Of a stretch of DNA of 13,275 nucleotides, positions 2-11,788 are shown in pieces. The notes beneath the pieces were generated by a model. The model saw only the letters and a program-made list of their open reading frames with translations, searched no databases and was not told where the DNA came from. The stretch comes from a virus. The position numbers and the translations under genes were made by a program. Within the stretch, counting starts at the first letter, position 1, and each line of letters begins with the position of its first letter. The stretch lies in the UHGV virus genome UHGV-0356291. The stretch is one strand, 5' to 3'.

Positions 2-160
2 GAGCGATTGAACAAACAGTTCGCACAACTTGAAAGCGAGCGTCAGTCGTTCGAGCCGCACTGGCGCGAGTTGAGTGATTACATCAACCCGCGTGGTTCC
101 CGCTTTCTGACTTCTGAGGTTAACCGTAACGATCGACGCCACAACTTAACAGGGCCATAA
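2..160 (+). CDS. portal protein, N-terminal fragment (5'-partial; start codon upstream of window); terminated by TAA 158-160 in the present orientation
   Basis: Frame 2 is open from position 2 and reads ERLNKQFAQLESERQSFEPHWRELSDYINPRGSRFLTSEVNRNDRR, resembling from memory the N-terminal region of T7 gp8 (YERLKNDRAPYETRAQ...). Same frame as the 215-1633 ORF. Confidence 0.6.
   Translation, partial: ERLNKQFAQLESERQSFEPHWRELSDYINPRGSRFLTSEVNRNDRRHNLTGP
94..139. repeat. left arm of 46-bp perfect inverted repeat (partner 289-334)
   Basis: Exact reverse complement of 289-334, checked base by base; mismatch at 93/335 and 140/288 defines the ends. Confidence 0.95.
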
Positions 161-214
161 TCCATCATTTCAGGATCTGGCGTAGCCAGGCGAAACCACG
201 GACGCGCGGGGCTT

Positions 215-1633
215 GTGATGCCTGACATCATGCCGCTGGCGAGAGTGCGCGCCGCCATAGTCCCGGTCGAATCAATAATGCGTGTATTGCGTCGATCGTT
301 ACGGTTAACCTCAGAAGTCAGAAAGCGGGAACCAGGAAGCCTCGGCACATACAGCACTGGTGCAATGGCAGTGCTGGAGGATGACGAGGACATCATTCGC
401 ACAATGCCATTCCCGATAGGCAGTTACTACCTGGCTAACTCACCTCGTGGCAGTGTGGACACCTGTTTTCGCAAGTTCTCTATGACTGTTCGTCAGCTTG
501 TTCAGGAGTTCGGGCTAAATAACGTCAGCGAATCCGTAAAAAGCATGTGGGAAAGCGGAACCTACGAGAAGTGGATTGAAGTGATGCATTCGGTTTACCC
601 GAACATTGACCGCGATACATCGAAGCTGGATAGCAAGAACAAGCCATTCAAATCGGTTTATTACGAGGTTGGTGGCGATAACGACAAGTTGTTGCGTGAG
701 TCCGGATTCGATGAGTTTCCAATTATGGCTCCGCGCTGGGAAGTTAACGGCGAAGATGTTTATGGATCATCATGCCCGGGTATGCTGGCGCTTGGACCTG
801 TTAAGGCATTGCAGCTTCTCCAGAAGCGCAAGTCGCAGTTGATTGATAAAGCCACCAATCCGCCGATGGTTGCTCCGACTTCCCTCAAGAATCAGCGTGC
901 CTCCCTTCTTCCTGGCGACATCACGTATATCGATCAGATTACTGGTCAGGATGGTTTCAGGCCTGCTTATCTGGTTAACCCCAGTACAGCAGATTTGGTG
1001 GCAGACATTCAGGACACCCGTCAAATCATTAACAGCGCCTACTTTGTCGATCTGTTCATGATGTTGCAGAACATCAATACCCGCTCGATGCCTGTTGAAG
1101 CGGTGATCGAAATGAAAGAAGAAAAACTTCTGATGTTGGGGCCGGTTCTGGAGCGTCTGAACGACGAATGTCTTAATCCTCTCATTGACCGCGCTTTCTC
1201 GATGATGGTGCGTAAAAACATGCTGCCGCCACCGCCTGACGCGATGGAAGGTATGCCCCTGAAGGTCGAATACATTTCCGTCATGGCTCAGGCGCAGAAG
1301 TCTATCGGCCTGTCCAGTCTGGCGTCTACGGTCAACTTCATTGGTCAACTTGCGCAAGCGAAACCAGAAGCTCTCGACAAACTCAACGTTGATCAGGCGA
1401 TCGATGCATTCGCTGATATGTCCGGAGTGTCTCCAACCGTCATTGTTCCGCAGGAACAGGTTGAGCAGGCTCGCCAGCAACGGGCACAGCAACAACAGCA
1501 GCAACAAATGATGGCGATGGGGATGGCGGCGGCACAGGGTGCCAAGACGCTAAGCGAAGCTAAAACTTCGGATCCGAGTGTTTTGTCAGCTATGGCGAAT
1601 GCAGTTAGTGGTCAGGGTGGGCAATCACAATGA
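215..1633 (+). CDS. portal (head-to-tail connector) protein, T7 gp8-like; 5' region disrupted, so ATG 215 is probably not the native start
   Basis: 472-aa ORF. C-terminus QQRAQQQQQQQMMAMGMAAAQGAKT matches the Q-rich ...QQSMQMGMDNGAAALAQGMAAQ tail I recall from T7 gp8. No Shine-Dalgarno before ATG 215; first ~25 codons are antisense of the flipped segment. Confidence 0.8.
   Translation: MMPDIMPLARVRAAIVPVESIMRVLRRSLRLTSEVRKREPGSLGTYSTGAMAVLEDDEDIIRTMPFPIGSYYLANSPRGSVDTCFRKFSMTVRQLVQEFGLNNVSESVKSMWESGTYEKWIEVMHSVYPNIDRDTSKLDSKNKPFKSVYYEVGGDNDKLLRESGFDEFPIMAPRWEVNGEDVYGSSCPGMLALGPVKALQLLQKRKSQLIDKATNPPMVAPTSLKNQRASLLPGDITYIDQITGQDGFRPAYLVNPSTADLVADIQDTRQIINSAYFVDLFMMLQNINTRSMPVEAVIEMKEEKLLMLGPVLERLNDECLNPLIDRAFSMMVRKNMLPPPPDAMEGMPLKVEYISVMAQAQKSIGLSSLASTVNFIGQLAQAKPEALDKLNVDQAIDAFADMSGVSPTVIVPQEQVEQARQQRAQQQQQQQMMAMGMAAAQGAKTLSEAKTSDPSVLSAMANAVSGQGGQSQ
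289..334. repeat. right arm of 46-bp perfect inverted repeat (partner 94-139)
   Basis: Exact reverse complement of 94-139. Confidence 0.95.
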
Positions 1634-1926
1634 CAGATTACGAAGACGATCAACTGAAAGAAGAAAACGCCCGTAAGCAACGTGACATGGCACAGCGTGA
1701 AATTGATGACATTTGCTTTGTCATGAGCAGTGAACAGGGGCGTCGCGTTGTCTGGTCGGTGCTGGAGAAAGGCCGTGTGTTTTCCGCTATCTCACCGATG
1801 GACGCTATGGCTATGGCATTTAATGAGGGGCAACGCAATCTGGCGCTGGAACTGTTTCAGCGCGTTATGGCGCATTGCCCTGAACAGTATTTGAAGATGG
1901 CCAAAGAGGCCAGTGAACAGGAGTGA
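1630..1926 (+). CDS. hypothetical protein (98 aa), between portal and scaffold
   Basis: ATG 1630 overlaps portal stop (ATGA); stop TGA 1924-1926 overlaps next gene; acidic/charged protein; no function recognised. Confidence 0.55.
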   Translation: MTDYEDDQLKEENARKQRDMAQREIDDICFVMSSEQGRRVVWSVLEKGRVFSAISPMDAMAMAFNEGQRNLALELFQRVMAHCPEQYLKMAKEASEQE

Positions 1927-1928
1927 TC

Positions 1929-2624
1929 ATGAATTTATTTGAGCGTTTGCTGTATCGCCGTCTTTGCAATGAGCAACCAGTCGATGGTGGAGCAGCTCCG
2001 GCTGCGTCAGAACCGTCAGCGCCTGCAGGTGATAACCCTGCTCCAGTTGGTGATCCATCACAACCGGAAGGTGATAAGCCACAACCTGTTGCTGATGGCG
2101 ATAAACCTGCTGATGACAAAAAGCCTGAAAACGATAAGCAGGATGAAAAAAAGGACGGCGATAAAACAGAGGGTGCGCCTGAGAAGTACGAGTTTCAGGC
2201 TGCCGAAGGCGTAGAGCTGGATACAGAAGCGTTGAAGGAATTCGAGCCGGTGGCGCGAGAACTAAACCTGACCAACGAGCAAGCGCAAAAGCTGGTTGAT
2301 GCTTATCCGAAGATTCTGGCAGGTGTTCAGCAGCGCCAGGCAGAAGCCTGGCAGAAAACAACCGAGCAGTGGGCTGCTGATGTAAAAGCTGACAAAGAAA
2401 TCGGTGGCGACAAGTTGATTTCTAACCTTAGCGCCGCACAGCGTGCGCTTGACCAGTTCGGGACACCTGAACTCAAAGAATATCTGAACACCACCGGGCT
2501 GGGTAATCACCCTGATCTGGTCAAAACGTTCGTGAAAATCGGAAAGGCGATGTCTGAAGATGGCATGGTCACCGGTGGTAATGAAGGCCAGCGTAGTGCG
2601 GCCGAAGTGCTCTATGGCAAATAA
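1929..2624 (+). CDS. putative scaffolding (capsid assembly) protein
   Basis: AGGAG at 1919-1923, 5 nt before ATG 1929 (six-frame track starts at in-frame GTG 1923). Highly acidic, Pro/Asp/Lys-rich N-terminal half, helical-looking C-terminal half, sits directly upstream of the capsid gene as T7 gp9 does. Confidence 0.6.
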   Translation: MNLFERLLYRRLCNEQPVDGGAAPAASEPSAPAGDNPAPVGDPSQPEGDKPQPVADGDKPADDKKPENDKQDEKKDGDKTEGAPEKYEFQAAEGVELDTEALKEFEPVARELNLTNEQAQKLVDAYPKILAGVQQRQAEAWQKTTEQWAADVKADKEIGGDKLISNLSAAQRALDQFGTPELKEYLNTTGLGNHPDLVKTFVKIGKAMSEDGMVTGGNEGQRSAAEVLYGK

Positions 2625-2638
2625 GAGAGGAAATGACA

Positions 2639-3625
2639 ATGGCTGTTAAAGGCTTAACTGCGCTAACGCTGGCTGACTGGGGTAAGCGCGTCGATCCAAA
2701 CGGGAAAGTCGATAAGATTATCGAGCTTCTCGGTCAAACTAACCCGATCCTTCAGGATATGCCTTTTGTCGAAGGGAACCTTCCTACCGGACACCGAACC
2801 ACCATTCGTTCTGGTTTACCTTCAGCTACCTGGCGTTTGCTGAACTATGGCGTACAGCCAAGCAAATCAACCACAGTACAGGTAACCGATTCCGTTGGCA
2901 TGCTGGAAACCTATGCGGAAGTCGATAAGTCACTGGCTGATCTGAACGGCAATACCGCCGAATTCCGCCTGTCTGAAGACCGCGCATTTATTGAAGCGAT
3001 GAATCAGCAGATGGCGCAGACGCTGTTTTATGGTGATTCCAGCGTTAACCCTCAGCAGTTTATGGGACTGTCCTCCCGCTATTCCAGCCTGTCTGCGGGT
3101 AATGCTCAGAACATCATTGATGCTGGTGGCACGGGTACAGATAACACCTCAATCTGGTTAGTGGTGTGGGGCGAAAACACCGTGCATGGCATCTTCCCGA
3201 AAGGGCAGAAGGCTGGCATCCAGATGGAAGATAAAGGCCAGGTGACACTGGAAGATGCTAATGGCGGCAAGTACGAAGGCTATCGCACCCATTACAAATG
3301 GGATAACGGACTTGCTCTGCGTGACTGGCGTTATGTTGTTCGCATTGCAAACATCGATGTCAGCAATCTTTCAGAACCTTCCTCTGCCGCAAATATTGCG
3401 AAGTTGATGGTTAAAGCACTGCATCGCATTCCAAATCGTGGCATGGGTCGCCCGGTGTTCTACATGAACCGCACTGTAGGCCAGGCTCTTGATCTGCAAT
3501 CTCTGGAGAAAACATCTCTGGCGATCAGCGTAAAAGAGACAGAAGGCGAGTGGTGGACTTCATTCCGTGGTGTACCAATCCGTGAAACTGATGCGCTTCT
3601 GGAAACAGAAGCCCGCGTGGTGTAA
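2639..3625 (+). CDS. putative major capsid protein (~328 aa)
   Basis: GAGG at 2627-2630, 8 nt before ATG 2639 (ATG 2633 is too close to the SD). Position after scaffold and size close to T7 gp10A (~345 aa from memory); called by synteny, no specific motif recognised. Confidence 0.6.
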   Translation: MAVKGLTALTLADWGKRVDPNGKVDKIIELLGQTNPILQDMPFVEGNLPTGHRTTIRSGLPSATWRLLNYGVQPSKSTTVQVTDSVGMLETYAEVDKSLADLNGNTAEFRLSEDRAFIEAMNQQMAQTLFYGDSSVNPQQFMGLSSRYSSLSAGNAQNIIDAGGTGTDNTSIWLVVWGENTVHGIFPKGQKAGIQMEDKGQVTLEDANGGKYEGYRTHYKWDNGLALRDWRYVVRIANIDVSNLSEPSSAANIAKLMVKALHRIPNRGMGRPVFYMNRTVGQALDLQSLEKTSLAISVKETEGEWWTSFRGVPIRETDALLETEARVV

Positions 3626-3641
3626 CGCCTGTTATTAACCT

Positions 3642-3661
3642 GTGGGTCGTAACAGACCCAC
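3642..3661 (+). promoter_or_regulatory. RNA stem-loop just downstream of capsid stop (GTGGGTC-gtaaca-GACCCAC)
   Basis: 7-bp GC-rich perfect stem with 6-nt loop, 17 nt after TAA 3623-3625; no U-tract follows, so not a classic intrinsic terminator. Confidence 0.5.
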
Positions 3662-3676
3662 TAATGGAGAAAGAAG

Positions 3677-4114
3677 ATGATCACCGACAAACTGTTGATG
3701 TTCTCCGAAGCACAGGCGGTAACTGATACCGCGGCTTCTACTGACGTAATCGATCTCGGTCCAATTGACGGAAAACGTCGTGATATCGGCGTGGGTTACC
3801 CGCTTGAGTTTTGGGCGCTGGTTAACACAGCCGCCGCAGCAAGCGGTGATGCAACTGTAAACATCCAGTTGCAGACGAGTGAGGATAACAGCTCATGGTC
3901 CACTATTTATGATAGTGGCGCACTGGCAAAGGCCACCCTGACAGCAGGTAAGCGAGTTGTTTCTGCAAAGGTGCCAGCCGGTGTTCAGCGATATCTGCGT
4001 GTTAACTACTCCGTCGCAACTGGCCCACTAACGGCTGGCAAATTCACTGCGGGTATCAATCTTGATGTTGATGCCAATACGCCGTATCCGATCCGCTCAA
4101 AAGTAACTGGTTAA
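3677..4114 (+). CDS. hypothetical virion-associated protein (145 aa)
   Basis: GGAG 3666-3669, 7 nt before ATG 3677; Ala/Thr/Gly-rich beta-like composition; no homolog named. Confidence 0.6.
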   Translation: MITDKLLMFSEAQAVTDTAASTDVIDLGPIDGKRRDIGVGYPLEFWALVNTAAAASGDATVNIQLQTSEDNSSWSTIYDSGALAKATLTAGKRVVSAKVPAGVQRYLRVNYSVATGPLTAGKFTAGINLDVDANTPYPIRSKVTG

Positions 4115-4124
4115 GGTGATATTG

Positions 4125-4460
4125 ATGTCAGGTGAGAAACCAAGATACCGCGTTCTGCGCCTCTCTCATATCCATAACACTCTGTGGCCGGAGGGGGCAG
4201 AAATCGAATACGAAGGTGAGCCTGGTAGCGCACTGGAACCTGTTAACGATGCAGCCAGACAGGCAAAAGCAAAAGTTGCAGGAAAAGAGTCAATGGCAGC
4301 AACCAGCACCAAAATCATCAACGATGTGTCAGATGATGGTGAACTGGATAAGCTCCGTGAAGAGTACGAATTGCTCTTTAACGAGAAGCCACACCATAAC
4401 GCCAAAGCCGAAACGCTCCGCGAGAAGATCGCAGATAAGCGTAAAGAACTGGGCGTGTAA
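4125..4460 (+). CDS. hypothetical protein (~112 aa)
   Basis: AAGGTG 4113-4118, 6 nt before ATG 4125 (track starts at GTG 4116); charged C-terminal half; followed immediately by an intrinsic terminator. Confidence 0.6.
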   Translation: MSGEKPRYRVLRLSHIHNTLWPEGAEIEYEGEPGSALEPVNDAARQAKAKVAGKESMAATSTKIINDVSDDGELDKLREEYELLFNEKPHHNAKAETLREKIADKRKELGV

Positions 4461-4478
4461 GCCTCGCGGATCAGACAA

Positions 4479-4498
4479 GGGGCTTCGGCCCCTTTATT
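4479..4498 (+). terminator. rho-independent terminator (GGGGC-ttcg-GCCCC then TTTATT)
   Basis: GC stem with UUCG tetraloop and U-rich tail, 19 nt after stop 4458-4460; stem can extend to AAGGGGC/GCCCCTT from 4477. Confidence 0.6.
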
Positions 4499-4510
4499 GC
4501 AGGAGTGTAT

Positions 4511-4834
4511 ATGGAACTCGTAAACCTCAAAACCGGCACTGACAGCTACCAGGATGAGAGCGGAGAAACCAGAACTCGCGATGAATACCCGTGGGGGCTG
4601 TGCATCACTCTTAATAACGACACATTGAATAAGCTGAAGGCGCAACCTCAGGGCGTCGGAACAGAAGTGATGATAACTGCAAAGGCTGTTATTCGAGGCC
4701 TGTCTGCCAGAGAAACTGACGATGGTGTTAATCGCAGCGCCGATCTGCAGATCACTGATATGGCGATCGCTCCTGTTTCCGGGGATGTAGAAAAATCAGC
4801 GGCTGAAACCCTGTACGGCAATGGGGGTGAGTAA
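4511..4834 (+). CDS. hypothetical protein (~107 aa) with scaffold-like C-terminal tail
   Basis: AGGAG 4500-4504, 6 nt before ATG 4511 (track starts at GTG 4505); C-terminus ...VEKSAAETLYGNGGE parallels scaffold C-terminus ...GQRSAAEVLYGK; stop TAA overlaps next ATG (TAATG). Confidence 0.6.
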   Translation: MELVNLKTGTDSYQDESGETRTRDEYPWGLCITLNNDTLNKLKAQPQGVGTEVMITAKAVIRGLSARETDDGVNRSADLQITDMAIAPVSGDVEKSAAETLYGNGGE

Positions 4835-5439
4835 TGGCCTCTGTAGTAGAGATCTGCAATCGTGCGCTGTCCAATATTGGCAATAGCCGCAGCATTAACA
4901 GCCTGACGGAAGCCAGCAAGGAAGCGGGGGAATGTTCGCTGCACTTTGAGGCCTGCCGTGATGCTGTGCTTTCTGATTTTGACTGGAACTTTGCTACCAA
5001 ACGCGTGGCGCTGGCAGATACGAGCAATCCACCGCCTGACTGGGAATATGCGTATCAGTACCCGTCCGATTGTCTGCGCATTACTGAAATTATGCTTCCT
5101 GGTGTACGCAATCCAACAGCAGCAATGCGCGTTCAGTACGAAGTAGGTGTAGACACCAACGGAACAGGAAAGTTGATCTACACAGACCAGCCTCAGGCAT
5201 GGCTCAAGTATGTCTCTCGCGTTACAGATGTGAACATGTTTGATGCCATTTTTATGGAGGCGTTGGCCTGGCGTCTTGCGGCAGCTATTAACATGGCGCT
5301 GACTGGGAATGCAGACCTCGGTACGTTTGCCCTCAATATGTACAATCGCGTGATTCTTAGTGCTGGCTCGCATAGCCAGAATGAATCACAGGAACCACAG
5401 CCACCGGTTGACGAGTTTACCATTGCGAGGTTGTCCTGA
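4834..5439 (+). CDS. putative tail tubular protein A (T7 gp11-like)
   Basis: 201 aa versus ~196 aa for T7 gp11 (from memory); N-terminal ICNRALSNIGNSRSINSLTEA resembles T7 gp11 AVNDILASIGEPPVSTLEG; followed by a ~800-aa gene as in T7. Confidence 0.55.
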   Translation: MASVVEICNRALSNIGNSRSINSLTEASKEAGECSLHFEACRDAVLSDFDWNFATKRVALADTSNPPPDWEYAYQYPSDCLRITEIMLPGVRNPTAAMRVQYEVGVDTNGTGKLIYTDQPQAWLKYVSRVTDVNMFDAIFMEALAWRLAAAINMALTGNADLGTFALNMYNRVILSAGSHSQNESQEPQPPVDEFTIARLS

Positions 5440-7910
5440 TGGCTATCAGTTGGATACAGCCCAGCTTTGCCGGTGGTGAGATTGGACCGTCGTTGTACGG
5501 TCGTATCGACATGGCGAAGTACCAGGTGGCATTGCGCAAGTGCGATAACTTTATCGTGCGGCAGTATGGCGGCGTTGAGAATCGACCTGGTACGCGTTTT
5601 GTCGGTGCCGCCAAATACCCAAATCGGAAATGCCGCCTGATCCCGTTCCAGTTCTCGACGGTTCAGACCTATGCTCTGGAGTTCGGACACCAGTACATGC
5701 GCGTTATCAAAGATGGTGCGTTGGTGCTGAACAGCAGCAATGTTATTTATGAAATTTCCACGCCATATACTGAAGCCGATCTGTTCCGAATTAAATTCAC
5801 GCAAAGCGCAGACGTGCTTACGCTGGTTCATCCGGCATACCCGCCGAAAGAGTTGCGCCGCTATGCGCATGACAACTGGCAACTGGTTGATGTGGTAACG
5901 AAGAACGGGCCATTTGAAGATATCAATATTGACGAGTCAGTGACGGTTTATGCCAGCGCCAGCACCGGGACAATTACGTTAACGGCAAGCGCCTCTATTT
6001 TTGGCGCGGAGCAGGTAGGCAAATTGTTCTATCTGGAACAGCCTGCAGTGGATTCTGTGCCGGTATGGGAAACCAGTAAGAGTACGTCGATTGGCGATAT
6101 TCGCCGTGCAGACAGTAACTACTATCGCGCCGTTACAGCAGGCAAAACAGGTACTTTGCGCCCTTCGCATACAGAAGGCACATCATGGGATGGCTGGGGC
6201 GGATCCGGTGATGATGATACTGGCATTGAGTGGGAGTATCTGCACAGTGGTTTTGGCATTGCCCGTATCACTGCTGCAAATGGCACTACTGCAACTGCTG
6301 AGGTGATTTCCTATATCCCTTCGCAGGTCGTTGGCGAGGATAATGCCAGCTATAAATGGGCTAAATATGCCTGGAACAGTGTTAATGGTTATCCTGGCAC
6401 TGTTGTTTATTATCAACAACGTCTTTACTTCGCCGCATCGACTGCGTTTCCTCAGACTATCTGGGCCAGCCGTACCGGGGATTATAAGGATTTTGGCAAA
6501 AGCAATCCTACGCAGGATGACGACAGAATTATCTACACCTATGCCGGACGTCAGGTTAATGAGATCCGCCACCTGATTGATGTTGGTTCTCTGGTGGCGC
6601 TGACTTCCGGAGGTGAGTACGTCATCACCGGCGACCAGAACAAAGTGTTAACCCCATCATCATTTGCATTCAGCTCTCAGGGATCAAATGGCTCAAGCAA
6701 CGTCCCGCCAATTGCCGTGGCGAATATTGCTCTGTTCGTCCAGGAGAAAGGCAGCGTTGTCCGTGATCTGGCCTACTCATTCGATGTTGACGGCTATCAG
6801 GGGAACGACCTGACCATCCTTGCCAATCATCTTTTTCAGAAGCACAGCATTGTTGACTGGTGCTTCTCGATTGTCCCTTACTCCAGTGCCTTCTGCATTC
6901 GTGATGACGGTAAATTACTGGTGATGACCTATTTGCGTGATCAGCAGGTTTTTGCATGGGCACCACAATCCAGTACCGGAAAATATGAAAGCACATGCAG
7001 TATCAGCGAAGGCAATGAAGATGCGGTGTATTTCGTCGTTAACCGAACCGTTAACGGGCAAACAGTGAGATACATCGAGCGACTGTCCAGCCGTTTATTT
7101 ACCAGCGATGAAGATGCTTTCTTTGTTGATTCTGGCCTTAGCTATGATGGAAGAAATACGTCTGACAGAACGATGACCATCACTGGTGGTTCTGGTGAAT
7201 GGGATTACCATGCGGAATATACAATCAGTGTTTCTGGTGGTGCGTACTTCACCAGTAGTGATGTCGGCGCGCAACTACAGTTCCCTTATACCGGAACTGA
7301 TCCTGATACTGGCGATGAAGTGTCAAAAGAATTACGTTGCGACATTATTTCTGTAACCAGCAATACCGCTGTAGTGGTTCGTGCTAACAGGAACGTCCCG
7401 CCATCCCTCAGGAATGTGGCCACCACGAACTGGCAGATGGCGCGCCGGACATTTGGCGGCTTGTCTCATCTTGAAGGCCAGACCGTAAACATCCTCTCTG
7501 ATGCGAACGTGGAACCACAGAAAGTGGTTTCCGGAGGTGCCGTCACGCTGGAATCTCCGGGGGCTGTAGTGCACATCGGCCTGCCAATAACTGCTGAATT
7601 CGAAACACTGGATATCAACATTAACGGACAGGAAACGCTGCTGGACAAAAAACAGGTGATCCCGTCCGTTACTCTGGTTGTGAATGCCAGTCGCGGCATC
7701 TGGGCGACTACGCCCGGCGGTAAATGGTACGAATATCCACAGCGTGAATTCGAGTTCTACGATGATCCTGTTGATGATGCTACCGGAAAAGTAGAAGTGA
7801 AACTGGACAGTAACTGGGGCAAAAACGGACGTGTAAAAATCCGTCAGCTTGATCCGTTGCCGCTGTCTGTTCTTGCCGTTATTCCTCGCCTTACTGTTGG
7901 GGGATTCTGA
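5439..7910 (+). CDS. putative tail tubular protein B / nozzle (T7 gp12-like)
   Basis: 823 aa versus ~794 aa for T7 gp12 (from memory); start overlaps upstream stop (TGATG); N-terminus MAISWIQPSFAGGEIGP loosely resembles T7 gp12 MALISQSIKNLKGGISQQP; assignment mostly by size and order. Confidence 0.5.
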   Translation: MAISWIQPSFAGGEIGPSLYGRIDMAKYQVALRKCDNFIVRQYGGVENRPGTRFVGAAKYPNRKCRLIPFQFSTVQTYALEFGHQYMRVIKDGALVLNSSNVIYEISTPYTEADLFRIKFTQSADVLTLVHPAYPPKELRRYAHDNWQLVDVVTKNGPFEDINIDESVTVYASASTGTITLTASASIFGAEQVGKLFYLEQPAVDSVPVWETSKSTSIGDIRRADSNYYRAVTAGKTGTLRPSHTEGTSWDGWGGSGDDDTGIEWEYLHSGFGIARITAANGTTATAEVISYIPSQVVGEDNASYKWAKYAWNSVNGYPGTVVYYQQRLYFAASTAFPQTIWASRTGDYKDFGKSNPTQDDDRIIYTYAGRQVNEIRHLIDVGSLVALTSGGEYVITGDQNKVLTPSSFAFSSQGSNGSSNVPPIAVANIALFVQEKGSVVRDLAYSFDVDGYQGNDLTILANHLFQKHSIVDWCFSIVPYSSAFCIRDDGKLLVMTYLRDQQVFAWAPQSSTGKYESTCSISEGNEDAVYFVVNRTVNGQTVRYIERLSSRLFTSDEDAFFVDSGLSYDGRNTSDRTMTITGGSGEWDYHAEYTISVSGGAYFTSSDVGAQLQFPYTGTDPDTGDEVSKELRCDIISVTSNTAVVVRANRNVPPSLRNVATTNWQMARRTFGGLSHLEGQTVNILSDANVEPQKVVSGGAVTLESPGAVVHIGLPITAEFETLDININGQETLLDKKQVIPSVTLVVNASRGIWATTPGGKWYEYPQREFEFYDDPVDDATGKVEVKLDSNWGKNGRVKIRQLDPLPLSVLAVIPRLTVGGF

Positions 7911-9041: not shown

Positions 9042-11788
9042 TGCCTGTTGTTCCTACTACATCCGGACGCCAGGTGCAAAGTCGTGGTGTGCAAACCGGT
9101 GGTTTTCAGACCTTCGATGTTCCTCAAGCAGGTCAGGTGCTGGCGAATGTCGCAGATCAGTATGCGGTGGCATATGGTGAAGCCAGGCAGAAAGCGAATG
9201 TTGCTATGGCCCAGGAGGCGTTACTGCAATTTAACCAATTTGCAGATGACCAGATTAACAACCCTGAAAATGGGCTGATTTCTAAACAGGGTAAAAACGC
9301 TCTTGGTCAGAGTGACGCTGTTATGAAAAATATGCAGGAAAGGGCTCAGGCATTATTAGGCTCAATTCCTGAAAGTGAGGAAAGGAATAAATTATCCTTT
9401 CAACTCCAGCAGTCTATGCAGTCTTATTACAATCAGGCACGTCGATATGAAGTTGGGCAGTTTCAGCAATTCCAAGATCAAACGTATTTGTCAGGAAATG
9501 CATTGGCTGTCACTCAGTCTGCGGGGCTATATAGCGATAACCAAGCATTTGTCGATTTAGCCAAGCAGCGATTTGAATCTATTGATCAATACGCTGATGC
9601 GCATGGGCTTCCTGATGAGTGGCGTGTTCAGCAGAAAACTCAGCTCAAGGAACAAATGGGGCAGCAAGCATGGATAGGAAATATCGCTCAAAAATACAAC
9701 GAGTTTCTTCAGGTTAATGGAGAGCCAGGGGATCTTGATGGTGTGAGTCGTGCAATATCACATGGTAATTCATTGGATGCTCGTGGTTTACGTAATAATA
9801 ACCCCGGTAATATTGAAGCGAGCAAATCTAACCCGTGGGAAGGTCAGATCGGTAGCGATGGACGTTTTGCAACGTTTGCTACCCCTGAGCATGGAATCCG
9901 CGCGTTGGGTAAAAATATGTTGTCTTACCAGCGTCAAGGCTATGACACCGTTAGCGAGATTGTTAATCGCTATGCTCCGGCTAGTGATGGTAATAATACT
10001 GATGCTTATATTAGGGCATTGTGTGGTGAGCTTGGTGTTGGGGAGAATGATCAGCTTGATATCTCTAACCCAAAGACACTAGCTGCTTTATGTGCTGGGA
10101 TTATTAAACACGAAAATGGCAGTATGCCTTATAGCACCGAACAGCTTGAAACTGGTATCTCGGCAGCCCTTGGTCTAACTAACCTTGATTCACCTAAGCG
10201 TTATACGGGCAATGCGGCATTTGATGCTATGAGCCCTCAAATGCAAATACAGGCATTGAGGCAGGCTAATGAGCTGAGAAATCAGTACCGCCAGCAGTAT
10301 GCGGACCAGCTTAGCACCGTAGTTAAAGATGCATATTCAGCCCTTGATGAAGGATTGAAACCTGAGAAGTTACCTTCTGAGGACGATTTTATCCGGGCCA
10401 ATGGTCCGCGCATTGGCGCTATGAAGTGGAAGGATATGCAGGCGCAGATACAATATGGAGGTGTCATTGGTGCCGCTAAAGACCTCACTCCAGAAGGACG
10501 GCAAGACATTCTTGAACGTTTACGTCCACAGGATCCAAACGCTCCTGGATTTGCAGCTAACCAGCAACGCTGGGAGAAAATGCAGGCCAAATTTAAAGAG
10601 ATGGATAGGGAGTGGGAGATTCAGCAGGGAAGAAACAGGTTCGTGTCTTCAATGCAAAATAACTTCCCGCTGGACCCGAACGACAAAAACAATCAGGCAG
10701 CGGTAGACCGTTATTTCGCGCAGGATATCGCGCCTTCGTTTTCCATATCTGATCCGCAGAGCATCAATACACTGGTCACCGTCACAACTAAAAGCGGCAT
10801 GATACCAACTCAGATTAAAACAATGCTTAACAGTGGAGCGACATCAAGAGATCCTGCGCTGGTTGTCCCGATGGCAAAATTCTACGGTCAGTTATTCGAT
10901 AATAATCCGGCGGCAGCGGCAACACTTGATAAAAGTACGATGGCATTTTACGGCAAGGTTTACGATTATTCCCGCGCTGGCGTGCCGGAGGATAAGGCTG
11001 TTGATATGGCTTACAGCCAGGTGTTCCAACAGGATGACCGAATGAAACAGATGCTTTCCACTGCCATGCGAGACAAAAAATATGTCGCGGCGAGGGCAAC
11101 TGCTGCACAAAATAACGCCAGCAGTCTGACTTCCTTTGGTTCGTGGTCTCCGGATATTACCGATCCAGGAAAATCAAATGCGGCCTATCAGCGAGATTAC
11201 CAGACAATTTACGATGCTAACTTTGTACAGACAGGTGGCGATGCAGAACAGGCTGAGAAAATGACCAATGCCATGATCAGAACCACTTGGGGAGTTTCTA
11301 CGGTTAATGGCAAAGCAGAGGTTATGAAGTATGCACCTGAGGCATTGTACGGAGTAAATAATGGTGCTGGTAACTGGATACAGGGGCAGTGGGAGCAGGA
11401 AAAACGCGAGCTTAAATCAAAATCCTTTGGCGGTCCTCGCAGTGATACGGACTTAATACTTGTTTCTGATGGCCTTACGGCAAGGGATAGGAGTTATGCT
11501 GTTATGGTTTTACAGCCTGACGCAAACGGAGCGATAGAACCGAGAAATTATATTGGAGAAAATGGTCTCCCTGTTCGTTTCAAGCCGGATCAGCTGACAT
11601 CTCCAATGTACAGGCAAACCATTCAGTTCCAGCAACAGCGTGTTGATGAGGCTAGAGTGCGGAGAGAAGGCAATCCGCTGCCGCAGTTCAGCAATAAAGA
11701 TGGATATACTCCTCCAGATCTGACAAAACCATTCGGTTATGGTTCAGCCAATTACCTTCCGAGCAATATATACGCAGGGGGCAAATAA
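9041..11788 (+). CDS. putative internal virion / ejection protein (915 aa) with a conserved-looking RNNNPGNI...RYAP block
   Basis: Long ORF coupled to flanking genes (TGATG / TAATG); Gln-rich; position equals T7 gp15/gp16; lower GC than upstream genes. Confidence 0.7.
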   Translation: MPVVPTTSGRQVQSRGVQTGGFQTFDVPQAGQVLANVADQYAVAYGEARQKANVAMAQEALLQFNQFADDQINNPENGLISKQGKNALGQSDAVMKNMQERAQALLGSIPESEERNKLSFQLQQSMQSYYNQARRYEVGQFQQFQDQTYLSGNALAVTQSAGLYSDNQAFVDLAKQRFESIDQYADAHGLPDEWRVQQKTQLKEQMGQQAWIGNIAQKYNEFLQVNGEPGDLDGVSRAISHGNSLDARGLRNNNPGNIEASKSNPWEGQIGSDGRFATFATPEHGIRALGKNMLSYQRQGYDTVSEIVNRYAPASDGNNTDAYIRALCGELGVGENDQLDISNPKTLAALCAGIIKHENGSMPYSTEQLETGISAALGLTNLDSPKRYTGNAAFDAMSPQMQIQALRQANELRNQYRQQYADQLSTVVKDAYSALDEGLKPEKLPSEDDFIRANGPRIGAMKWKDMQAQIQYGGVIGAAKDLTPEGRQDILERLRPQDPNAPGFAANQQRWEKMQAKFKEMDREWEIQQGRNRFVSSMQNNFPLDPNDKNNQAAVDRYFAQDIAPSFSISDPQSINTLVTVTTKSGMIPTQIKTMLNSGATSRDPALVVPMAKFYGQLFDNNPAAAATLDKSTMAFYGKVYDYSRAGVPEDKAVDMAYSQVFQQDDRMKQMLSTAMRDKKYVAARATAAQNNASSLTSFGSWSPDITDPGKSNAAYQRDYQTIYDANFVQTGGDAEQAEKMTNAMIRTTWGVSTVNGKAEVMKYAPEALYGVNNGAGNWIQGQWEQEKRELKSKSFGGPRSDTDLILVSDGLTARDRSYAVMVLQPDANGAIEPRNYIGENGLPVRFKPDQLTSPMYRQTIQFQQQRVDEARVRREGNPLPQFSNKDGYTPPDLTKPFGYGSANYLPSNIYAGGK

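What the first reader, a model, noticed from the sequence alone, without database searches (positions are those of the whole stretch)
3677..4834. Three extra small genes and a terminator between the capsid gene and tail tubular protein A
In canonical T7 the capsid gene is followed directly by gene 11. Here 145-aa, ~112-aa and ~107-aa ORFs with good ribosome-binding sites are inserted, none of which I can assign. The region is split by a strong intrinsic terminator after the second one. This is a plausible site for lineage-specific accessory genes such as decoration, internal or host-interaction proteins.
Basis: partly seen in the sequence, partly recalled or inferred. Interest (0 to 1): 0.45.

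Follow-up and report, generated by a model that had tools for sequence, protein, structure and literature searches.

The report
phiV10/ε15-type capsid cement gene trio
The three small genes and the terminator are real, but they are the ordinary, conserved gp8-gp9-terminator-gp10 block of a phiV10/epsilon15-type E. coli prophage rather than extras in a T7 genome: the first encodes the known capsid cement protein, and the third belongs to a family that databases call "capsid staple protein", a name published re-analysis and my checks suggest is wrong.

Summary
Observation confirmed. Three + strand genes with ribosome-binding sites lie at 3677-4114 (145 aa), 4125-4460 (111 aa) and 4511-4834 (107 aa). 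A GC hairpin with a UUCG loop and a U-rich tail sits at 4477-4498, after the second gene.

The T7 framing is wrong. The window is 98% identical to phage phiV10 (Uetakevirus, ε15-like). The segment occurs in 532 of 5,426 complete E. coli genomes. The trio equals phiV10 p11-p13 and ε15 gp8-gp9-gp10.

- **ORF A** is a Bbp16-family capsid cement protein. It matches Pfam at 160 bits and the solved cement proteins of BPP-1 (1e-27) and Carin-1 (7e-22).
- **ORF B** has no known function. Its N-terminal domain is conserved in the gene that follows the cement gene in distant relatives.
- **The terminator** is conserved at this slot across the whole ε15/BPP-1 group. Its position recalls T7 Tφ after gene 10.
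- **ORF C** is an ε15 gp10 homologue, named "capsid staple protein" by NCBI. Hryc and Baker (2022) showed that assignment was probably wrong. My AlphaFold model is not a jellyroll and matches nothing solved. Its gene always sits next to the portal or adaptor gene, and Carin-1 lacks it. I propose a low-copy portal-vertex protein; this is inferred, not shown.

Novelty: already known. Interest: low to moderate.

The parts
2633..3625 (+). Major capsid protein, GP7/Bbp17 type (context; phiV10 and RefSeq start it at 2639)
   Evidence: Pfam PF20911 GP7 at 497 bits. PDB matches: 3j4u_A BPP-1 MCP E 9.5e-129, 8cjz_Y 1.2e-87, 3j40_A ε15 gp7 2e-85.
3642..3661 (+). Hairpin GTGGGTC-GTAACA-GACCCAC just after the capsid gene stop, with no U tract
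   Evidence: Folds at -12.4 kcal/mol; z = -2.2 in its 61-nt context. Phage Tyrion keeps it through a U-A to C-G change. GC hairpins sit at the same slot in BPP-1, BcepC6B and JessA but not in ε15 or the environmental contigs.
3677..4114 (+). ORF A, 145 aa: Bbp16-family capsid cement (decoration) protein; equals phiV10 p11 and ε15 gp8
   Evidence: Pfam PF21190 Bbp16 at 159.9 bits against a cut-off of 27.1. PDB 3j4u_H BPP-1 cementing protein E 1.3e-27 over residues 1-141; 8cjz_B Carin-1 decoration protein E 7.4e-22. phrog_427 full length. RefSeq name.
4125..4460 (+). ORF B, 111 aa: conserved small protein encoded after the cement gene, function unknown; equals phiV10 p12 and ε15 gp9. Conserved N-terminal domain, variable Ala/Lys-rich linker, conserved C-terminal helix-loop-helix
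   Evidence: phrog_590 full length; no Pfam, NCBIfam or PDB match. Alignment A2 shows the three-part layout and linker duplications. AlphaFold2 pLDDT 62. An HMM of the N-domain hits the 65-75 aa ORFs after the cement gene in distant relatives, E 1e-12 to 7e-5.
4477..4498 (+). Intrinsic-terminator-like hairpin AAGGGGC-TTCG-GCCCCTT followed by TATT
   Evidence: Sequence; -12.1 kcal/mol. Identical in phiV10 and Tyrion. An equivalent hairpin plus U tract occurs in ε15 (annotated as a terminator), BPP-1, CP2, JessA, MW202722 and L011/L013/L014. Not called by the simple scanner.
4511..4834 (+). ORF C, 107 aa: Gp10-like family (PF21628); equals phiV10 p13 and ε15 gp10. Annotated 'capsid staple protein', probably wrongly
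   Evidence: Pfam 173.6 bits. PDB 3j40_N E 2.1e-21. AlphaFold2 pLDDT 77, dominated by a 17-residue-per-strand β-hairpin. No structural match to any PDB entry, including 3J40. Only its own family is found in BFVD.
4834..5439 (+). Adaptor / tail tubular protein A homologue (context). Its ATG overlaps the ORF C stop by one base (TAATG)
   Evidence: phrog_394 tail protein and phrog_9239 tail tubular protein. ε15 gp11 is annotated with an HHpred match to T7 tail tubular protein A. Overlap read from the sequence.

Best explanation
The region is the capsid-accessory end of the head operon of a phiV10/ε15-type temperate podophage integrated in E. coli.

ORF A is the cement protein. By homology with BPP-1 Bbp16 it is a jellyroll protein. 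It should bind as dimers on the outside of the T=7 shell at the local two-fold interfaces between capsomers, about one copy per capsid subunit. It clamps a shell that lacks covalent cross-links.

ORF B is a conserved partner gene that always follows the cement gene. Its role is unknown. My best guess is a head-assembly or packaging accessory factor made in capsid-like amounts.

The hairpin after ORF B is a conserved intrinsic terminator. It separates the high-copy capsid genes (portal to gp9) from the low-copy tail genes. I infer that it attenuates transcription or stabilises the 3' end of the capsid mRNA, like Tφ after T7 gene 10.

ORF C is the ε15 gp10 homologue. It is probably not the capsid staple its database name claims. 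It lies downstream of the terminator and is translationally coupled to the 12-copy adaptor gene. In other lineages its gene sits directly beside the portal gene. I infer a low-copy, portal-vertex-associated minor virion protein or assembly factor.
For: Identity of the element:
- The window is 98% identical to phiV10 and relatives.
- The segment is 100% identical to E. coli prophages and is present in 532 of 5,426 complete genomes.
- Annotated synteny matches phiV10, Tyrion and ε15.

ORF A:
- Pfam Bbp16 at 160 bits.
- Full-length matches to two solved cement proteins.
- Its partner capsid protein matches the BPP-1 MCP at 1e-128.
- BPP-1 Bbp16 was shown by 3.5 Å cryo-EM, mass spectrometry and deletion to be an essential jellyroll cement protein (PMC3863775).
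- ΦXacm4-11 shows the same arrangement.

Terminator:
- The sequence itself and its conservation in 8 further lineages or contigs.
- It is annotated as a terminator in ε15.

ORF C is probably not the staple:
- Hryc and Baker 2022 found that the AlphaFold model of the 111-aa ε15 gp10 does not fit the staple density, whereas a 130-aa protein does (PMC9207676). ε15 gp8 is 130 aa and is the Bbp16 homologue.
- My AlphaFold2 model of ORF C is not a jellyroll and matches nothing in the PDB.
- Carin-1 has the same capsid and cement proteins, with a solved structure, but no Gp10-like gene anywhere between its terminase and nozzle genes.

Gene position of the Gp10-like family:
- Directly after the portal gene in BPP-1, BcepC6B, JessA, DC33, MW202722 and three environmental phage types.
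- Between the large terminase and portal genes in CP2.
- Directly before the adaptor gene in Uetakeviruses.

ORF B: its N-domain is homologous to the small ORFs that follow the cement gene in distant relatives.
Against: - No experiment on phiV10-type proteins was available. Every function is inferred by homology or gene context.
- ε15 proteomics did report gp10 in virions, and PDB 3J40 still lists it as the staple. A second capsid-associated role is therefore not excluded.
- The window's U tract is interrupted (UUUAUU). The consensus scanner missed the site, and its context is not unusually stable, so termination efficiency is unknown.
- Gene adjacency to portal or adaptor is only suggestive. 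No structure of a related virion (BPP-1, ΦXacm4-11) has reported a Gp10-like protein at the portal vertex.
- The ORF B model is low confidence (pLDDT 62), and no homologue has a known function.
Confidence: 0.8

Rival explanations
1. One reading: the three ORFs are lineage-specific accessory or moron-type genes inserted between the capsid gene and gene 11 of a T7-like phage, perhaps for host interaction.
For: Canonical T7 has no genes between gene 10 and gene 11 (established knowledge). ORF B has no assignable function.
Against: The genome is not T7-like. It is a Uetakevirus. The trio is conserved in gene order across Escherichia, Salmonella, Enterobacter and Klebsiella phages. Each family extends to Bordetella, Burkholderia, Caulobacter, Xanthomonas and environmental phages. 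There are no defence-system hits.
Confidence: 0.03
2. ORF C really is a capsid 'staple' decoration protein, as annotated. The phage would then carry two external capsid-stabilising proteins, ORF A and ORF C.
For: PDB 3J40 chains H-N are built with the ε15 gp10 sequence. NCBI and UniProt name the family 'capsid staple protein'. A 2020 review lists gp10 as the ε15 two-fold dimer decoration protein (PMC7602432). ε15 proteomics found gp10 in virions (reported).
Against: The group that built 3J40 later found that gp10 does not fit the density and that a 130-aa protein does. BPP-1, ΦXacm4-11 and Carin-1 capsids are fully explained by the capsid protein plus a Bbp16-type protein. The ORF C model is not a jellyroll and does not resemble 3J40. 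Carin-1 lacks the gene. The gene lies downstream of the terminator with the low-copy tail genes.
Confidence: 0.1
3. ORF C is a non-structural head-assembly factor, for example one that helps incorporate the portal into the procapsid or acts as a chaperone for portal or adaptor. On this view it is found in virions only as a trace contaminant.
For: Its gene lies next to the portal or adaptor gene in every lineage examined. It is absent from all modelled densities in related virions. The phage Carin-1 does without it.
Against: ε15 proteomics detected it in purified virions clearly enough for it to be taken as a major component. Its strongly conserved N-terminus and LQITDM motif fit a structural role as well as an assembly role.
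Confidence: 0.3
4. ORF B is the scaffolding protein, or a λ gpFI-like packaging chaperone. Its C-terminal basic helix-loop-helix would bind the coat protein, as in the P22 scaffolding protein, and it is expressed with the capsid genes upstream of the terminator.
For: It has a helical, charged, Ala/Lys-rich linker of variable length and a conserved C-terminal helix-loop-helix. It lies upstream of the terminator with the high-copy genes. The Xanthomonas and Caulobacter genes at the same slot carry long Ala/Gln/Lys coiled-coil-like tails. The comparisons with P22 gp8 and λ gpFI rest on my own knowledge and were not tested.
Against: In most relatives the protein is only 65-75 aa, an N-domain plus a short basic tail with no helix-loop-helix. 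That is too small for a scaffold. The usual scaffold slot, upstream of the capsid gene, is occupied by the 233-aa 'protease' gene. The model is low confidence.
Confidence: 0.15

Closest known systems
Bordetella phage BPP-1 Bbp16 cement protein (PDB 3J4U); also Cobetia phage Carin-1 gp42 (PDB 8CJZ) and ΦXacm4-11 gp26
   Same: ORF A aligns over its full length (46% identity to Bbp16, E 1e-27). It belongs to the same Pfam family. It is encoded directly after a GP7/Bbp17-type capsid gene that is itself 1e-128 to BPP-1's.
   Different: It is 145 aa rather than 140 or 130, and the C-terminal tail differs. No structure or virion data exist for the phiV10-type protein.
Phage ε15 gp8-gp9-terminator-gp10, and phiV10 p11-p12-p13
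   Same: Same gene order, same terminator position, and the same overlap of the third gene with the adaptor gene. Identities to ε15 are 38%, 41% and 43%. The window is about 98% identical in DNA to phiV10.
   Different: The phiV10-type capsid and cement proteins are closer to BPP-1 than to ε15. ε15 gp9 is shorter (94 aa). The ε15 terminator has a longer stem and is flanked by A and U runs, so it is annotated on both strands.
ε15 gp10 'capsid staple' model (PDB 3J40 chains H-N; Pfam PF21628)
   Same: ORF C is a clear sequence homologue (E 2e-21; 174 bits to Pfam).
   Different: The predicted fold is a long β-hairpin plus a small N-terminal hairpin and two short helices. It does not resemble the deposited model. 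The published re-analysis assigns the staple density to a 130-aa protein instead.
T7 terminator Tφ after capsid gene 10 (comparison from established knowledge)
   Same: An intrinsic terminator placed right after the capsid gene block and before the adaptor and nozzle genes. It is conserved across the ε15/BPP-1 group.
   Different: It would act on host RNA polymerase transcripts, not T7 RNA polymerase. In Uetakeviruses one extra gene (ORF C) lies between it and the adaptor gene. Its activity is untested.
Small portal-neighbour virion proteins such as λ gpW, SPP1 gp7 and T7 gp6.7/gp7.3 (analogy from memory, not tested)
   Same: A small protein whose gene lies beside the portal gene, reported in virions, and not part of the icosahedral lattice.
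   Different: No sequence or fold similarity was detected. This is an analogy only, not membership.

Membership tests
Bbp16 capsid cement protein family (PF21190) - ORF A | Sequence match to the family model above the curated threshold | tested here: met
   159.9 bits against a cut-off of 27.1, covering model positions 1-115 of 115.
Bbp16 capsid cement protein family (PF21190) - ORF A | Homology to experimentally solved cement proteins over the full length | tested here: met
   3j4u_H E 1.3e-27 (residues 1-141); 8cjz_B E 7.4e-22 (residues 1-130).
Bbp16 capsid cement protein family (PF21190) - ORF A | Encoded immediately downstream of a GP7/Bbp17-type (BPP-topology) major capsid gene | tested here: met
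   Capsid gene at 2633-3625: PF20911 at 497 bits, 3j4u_A 9.5e-129. The same order is seen in every relative examined.
Bbp16 capsid cement protein family (PF21190) - ORF A | Eight-stranded jellyroll fold, bound as dimers at local two-folds, about 1:1 with the capsid protein | not tested
   Inferred from 46% identity to Bbp16.
ε15 Gp10-like family (PF21628) - ORF C | Sequence match to the family model above threshold | tested here: met
   173.6 bits against a cut-off of 27; 3j40_N E 2.1e-21.
Capsid staple / decoration protein (functional class) - ORF C | Fold compatible with the two-fold staple density (β-jellyroll, as in 3J40 and Bbp16) | tested here: not met
Capsid staple / decoration protein (functional class) - ORF C | Present wherever the stapled GP7-type capsid is present | tested here: not met
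   Carin-1 has the GP7-type capsid and Bbp16-type cement proteins, but no Gp10-like ORF between its terminase and nozzle genes (HMM search). Pseudomonas, Vibrio and other phages with Bbp16 homologues gave no tblastn hit to ORF C; that search used a single query and is less sensitive.
Capsid staple / decoration protein (functional class) - ORF C | About 420 copies per virion | not testable with these tools
   Needs quantitative proteomics of purified virions.
Rho-independent (intrinsic) terminator - 4477-4498 | GC-rich stem-loop directly after a stop codon | tested here: met
   A 7-bp stem (5 G-C pairs) with a UUCG loop, -12.1 kcal/mol, 17 nt after the ORF B stop.
Rho-independent (intrinsic) terminator - 4477-4498 | Uninterrupted U tract of at least 5-7 nt immediately 3' of the stem | tested here: inconclusive
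   The tract reads UUUAUUG if the last two stem bases are counted. The consensus scanner did not call the site. Relatives have cleaner tracts, for example BPP-1 with UUUUU and L013 with UUUUU.
Rho-independent (intrinsic) terminator - 4477-4498 | Conserved at the same position in relatives despite sequence divergence | tested here: met
   Hairpins with different sequences sit at the same slot in ε15, BPP-1, CP2, JessA, MW202722 and L011/L013/L014. Carin-1 has a hairpin without a U tract, and BcepC6B has none.
Rho-independent (intrinsic) terminator - 4477-4498 | Terminates transcription in vivo | not testable with these tools
   Needs Term-seq, RNA-seq or a reporter assay.
   The best DNA matches are all Uetakevirus. 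The capsid protein is the GP7/BPP type. Only the portal, adaptor and nozzle are distantly T7-related.

The most novel reading that the evidence does not exclude
The PF21628 'capsid staple protein' family contains more than 1,600 clusters at 90% identity and is carried by about 10% of complete E. coli genomes. I suggest it is mis-named. It would instead be an uncharacterised, novel-fold, low-copy protein of the portal vertex. Its conserved long β-hairpin would oligomerise, for example into a β-barrel collar or plug on the portal or adaptor. Its gene has moved between three portal- or adaptor-adjacent slots during evolution of the ε15/BPP-1 group. ORF B's N-domain would define a second unrecognised conserved family that always follows the cement gene.
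Probability: 0.35. Interest if true: 0.5.

Novelty: already known. Interest (0 to 1): 0.27.

Why it matters
For the scan, this is an ordinary, already annotated piece of a common E. coli prophage, not a new insertion.

Two modest points are worth passing on.
- Current RefSeq annotation gives the same prophage both a "Bbp16 family capsid cement protein" and a "capsid staple protein". Those are two names for one density on the ε15/BPP-1-type capsid. The second name probably propagates a 2008-2013 cryo-EM mis-assignment across a family of more than 1,600 clusters.
- That leaves two conserved head-module proteins (ε15 gp9-like and gp10-like) with no known role in a well-studied structural model system. 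A knock-out plus an asymmetric cryo-EM reconstruction could settle this.

Tried and rejected
- **T7 frame.** Rejected after megablast and the Pfam and PHROG scans.
- **Known functions for ORF B.** Pfam at E up to 10, NCBIfam, PADLOC, and phmmer and profile searches of the PDB gave only noise, such as DivIVA, GldM and Talin at E above 0.004.
- **Remote PDB relatives of ORF C.** A 15-sequence cross-genus profile found only 3J40_N.
- **Carin-1 gp40 'head spike base protein'.** It is encoded in the same stretch, between the cement gene and the connector gene. I considered it as an ORF C equivalent and rejected it: there is no sequence resemblance and the Gp10-like HMM does not hit it.
- **The search for related loci with the family alignment.** It failed because no conserved stretch was long enough.
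- **Original ε15 papers.** Jiang 2006 and Baker 2013 are not held, so the virion proteomics is cited second-hand.
- **ΦXacm4-11 proteomics.** The table that would show whether the Gp10-like gp18 is in virions is held only as an image.
- **Rfam scan of 3300-5200.** Nothing found.
- **Promoter scan.** No σ70-like promoter lies between the terminator and ORF C.
Full report
**1. What is in the sequence**

The window carries an uninterrupted run of + strand genes. In the flagged interval there are three ORFs.
- ORF A is 3677-4114 (ATG, 145 aa).
- ORF B runs to 4460. Its best start is ATG 4125 (111 aa), preceded by AAGGTGA.
- ORF C runs to 4834. Its best start is ATG 4511 (107 aa), preceded by AGGAG at 4501-4505.

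These starts match those annotated in phiV10, Tyrion and RefSeq E. coli.

Between ORF B and ORF C lies AAGGGGC-TTCG-GCCCCTT followed by TATTG (4477-4498). The core hairpin folds at -12.1 kcal/mol. The TAA stop of ORF C overlaps the ATG of the next gene by one base (TAATG, 4832-4836). The sizes given as '~112' and '~107' are really 111 and 107 aa.

**2. Where the window comes from**

Megablast of 2600-5500 finds 15 Escherichia phages at 95-99% identity, including phiV10, TL-2011b and the O157 typing phages 9 and 10. Enterobacter phage Tyrion matches at 83.5%, and Salmonella and Klebsiella relatives at about 77%. All are Uetakevirus or ε15-like.

The 1.2-kb segment itself is present in 532 of 5,426 complete E. 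coli genomes, almost always on the chromosome. In several it is 100% identical. So the window is a phiV10-type prophage, not a T7-like phage.

The gene order is portal (cut at the window's 5' end), a Bbp19-like gene, 'protease', GP7-type capsid, ORF A, ORF B, terminator, ORF C, adaptor (tail tubular A-like), nozzle. The trio equals phiV10 p11-p13 and ε15 gp8-gp10. Protein identities to ε15 are 38%, 41% and 43%.

**3. ORF A is the capsid cement protein**

- It matches Pfam PF21190 (Bbp16) at 159.9 bits against a cut-off of 27.1.
- It aligns end to end with the BPP-1 cementing protein (3J4U_H, E 1.3e-27).
- It also aligns with a 130-aa 'capsid decoration protein' (8CJZ_B, E 7.4e-22). I identified the latter as gp42 of Cobetia phage Carin-1, whose GenBank record marks it 'structurally identified and validated'.
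- The adjacent capsid protein matches the BPP-1, Carin-1 and ε15 capsid proteins at 1e-128, 1e-87 and 2e-85.

In BPP-1, Bbp16 is one of the two most abundant virion proteins. It was traced at 3.5 Å as an eight-stranded jellyroll and is required for infectious particles (PMC3863775). ΦXacm4-11 shows the same upright cement-protein pairs at capsomer interfaces, with 7 capsid plus 7 cement subunits per asymmetric unit.

So the function of ORF A follows by strong homology and conserved context. It was not shown for this protein.

**4. The terminator is real and conserved**

The simple scanner did not report the site, and the 61-nt context is not unusually stable (z = -0.5). Taken alone, 'strong terminator' is not demonstrated.

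I therefore folded the equivalent intergenic region in relatives. This is the gap after the small gene that follows the cement gene. A GC-rich hairpin followed by U's is present in:
- ε15 (annotated there as a rho-independent terminator on both strands);
- BPP-1 (GGGGGC-UUCGU-GCCCCC-GCUUUUU);
- Xanthomonas CP2, Caulobacter JessA and MW202722;
- three environmental phage types (L011, L013, L014).

The stem sequences differ between lineages. Carin-1 has a hairpin without a U tract, and BcepC6B has no gap.

A terminator that closes the capsid gene block is thus a conserved feature of the whole ε15/BPP-1 group. It is positionally analogous to T7 Tφ (established knowledge). Its likely role is to set the capsid-to-tail expression ratio or to stabilise the 3' end of the capsid mRNA. 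That role is inferred. No σ70-like promoter lies downstream of it, so the tail genes presumably depend on read-through.

**5. ORF C: the name 'capsid staple protein' is probably wrong**

ORF C belongs to PF21628 (173.6 bits) and matches ε15 gp10 in PDB 3J40 (E 2e-21). NCBI and UniProt call its homologues 'capsid staple protein'. A 2020 review lists gp10 as ε15's two-fold decoration dimer.

However, Hryc and Baker (2022, PMC9207676) re-examined the ε15 map. They reported three things:
- The AlphaFold2 model of the 111-aa gp10 'bore little resemblance' to the density apart from two long strands.
- A 130-aa ε15 protein fits well.
- They concluded that the 111-aa sequence 'was indeed incorrectly assigned'.

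ε15 gp8 is 130 aa and is the Bbp16 homologue. I infer that it is that 130-aa protein. The passages I read do not name the gene.

My own checks agree.
- With a 40-sequence alignment, AlphaFold2 gives ORF C a mean pLDDT of 77. The model is dominated by one very long β-hairpin (strands 53-69 and 72-88, pLDDT about 90), plus a small N-terminal hairpin and two short helices.
- BFVD returns only members of its own family, such as BcepC6B gp06.
- A cross-genus profile finds no other solved homologue.
- Carin-1 shares the capsid and cement proteins but has no Gp10-like ORF between terminase and nozzle.

**6. Where the Gp10-like gene sits**

The family is large: a profile search found 1,603 clusters at 90% identity. 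Its gene occupies three different slots.
- Immediately after the portal gene in BPP-1 (Bbp20), BcepC6B (gp06), Caulobacter JessA, Limnohabitans DC33, MW202722 and three environmental phage types. The upstream gene in DC33 was confirmed as portal.
- Between the large terminase and portal genes in Xanthomonas CP2, equal to ΦXacm4-11 gp18.
- Immediately before the adaptor gene, and overlapping it, in Uetakeviruses.

Every slot touches a portal-vertex gene. In this window the gene also lies downstream of the terminator, with the low-copy tail genes.

Together with the reported presence of gp10 in ε15 virions, I think a low-copy portal-vertex protein or a portal/adaptor assembly factor is the most likely role. 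This is an inference from context (probability about 0.35 for the virion-component version). No related virion structure has reported such a protein.

**7. ORF B**

ORF B has no match in Pfam, NCBIfam, PADLOC or the PDB. The alignment of 42 homologues shows three parts:
- an invariant N-terminal stretch of about 50 residues;
- an Ala/Lys-rich linker of variable length, duplicated in some Klebsiella and Citrobacter prophages;
- an invariant C-terminal helix-loop-helix (…LDKLREEYELLFNEKPHHN.KAETLREKIA.KRKELGV).

The AlphaFold2 model is of low confidence (pLDDT 62).

An HMM of the N-domain, searched against all 2,348 six-frame ORFs of the loci I had fetched, hits exactly the small ORFs that follow the cement gene. 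These are the environmental BPP-1-like phages (E 1e-12, 2e-10, 7e-5), MW202722 (2.5e-6), JessA 045c (8e-7) and ε15 gp9 (1e-6). The next best hit is at E 0.6.

So the N-domain defines a conserved gene that follows the cement gene. In most lineages its product is only 65-75 aa, with a short basic tail. The helix-loop-helix is an enterobacterial addition. Bbp15 and BcepC6B gp10 show a similar motif by eye but were not detected statistically.

The function is unknown. Scaffold-like or λ FI-like ideas are listed as rivals and rest partly on memory.

**8. Verdict**

The element is already known and annotated.

What remains open is the real role of two conserved small head-module proteins, and an apparently wrong family name in the public databases.

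Noticed in passing
window 3642-3661: A 7-bp hairpin (GTGGGTC/GACCCAC, -12.4 kcal/mol, z = -2.2) sits just after the capsid gene stop and has no U tract. Tyrion keeps it through a U-A to C-G compensatory change. BPP-1, BcepC6B and JessA have strong GC hairpins at the same slot, but ε15 and the environmental contigs do not. It may be an mRNA 3'-end stabiliser or a processing site.
   Followed up: partly
proteins P0021 and P0117 (ENA contigs; homologues of window 4511-4834): These are two reciprocal chimeras between the Gp10-like protein and a ClpP protease. They are joined exactly at the shared motif QITDMAI (ClpP has GQ[AI]TD). They are probably metagenome assembly artefacts at a shared k-mer, but that both reciprocal products exist is odd.
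   Followed up: no
window 1923-2624: The 233-aa gene upstream of the capsid gene is annotated 'protease' or 'peptidase' (phrog_458, RefSeq) but matches no Pfam family. The BPP-1 capsid proteins are reported as uncleaved. The gene in the same slot in Carin-1 (gp44) looks like an acidic, low-complexity scaffolding protein. The protease label may be unreliable.
   Followed up: no
window 2-1633 versus L015 829-2508: The E. coli AR_0086 prophage is 100% identical to the window across 3626-4834, but its portal protein is only 88% identical to the window's portal. This indicates mosaic recombination within the head module.
   Followed up: no
L015 104-180 (E. coli AR_0086 chromosome): A tRNA-Arg gene lies about 430 bp upstream of the gp3-like gene that precedes portal, where phiV10 has its terminase genes. 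The prophage end seems to fall between the terminase and portal genes, so the integrated map is permuted relative to the deposited phage genome.
   Followed up: no
alignment A2 (homologues of window 4125-4460), e.g. P0154, P0184: In some Klebsiella and Citrobacter prophages the ORF B linker carries a tandem duplication of a block of about 28 residues (…PLNDAAKEAKAKAKSKGKAS…). This lengthens the protein to 139-142 aa.
   Followed up: no
L009 9706-9918 (MW202722): The deposited annotation calls a 55-aa ORF at 9779-9946. The conserved ORF B-like N-domain is instead encoded by a different-frame ORF at 9706-9918 (HMM E 2.5e-6). The GenBank gene call is probably wrong.
   Followed up: partly
window 2633-4114: The phiV10-type capsid and cement proteins are clearly closer to Bordetella phage BPP-1 (1e-128; 46% identity) than to Salmonella phage ε15 (2e-85; 38%). 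Yet phiV10 and ε15 share a genus, and ORF C is closer to ε15 gp10 than to Bbp20 over its full length.
   Followed up: no
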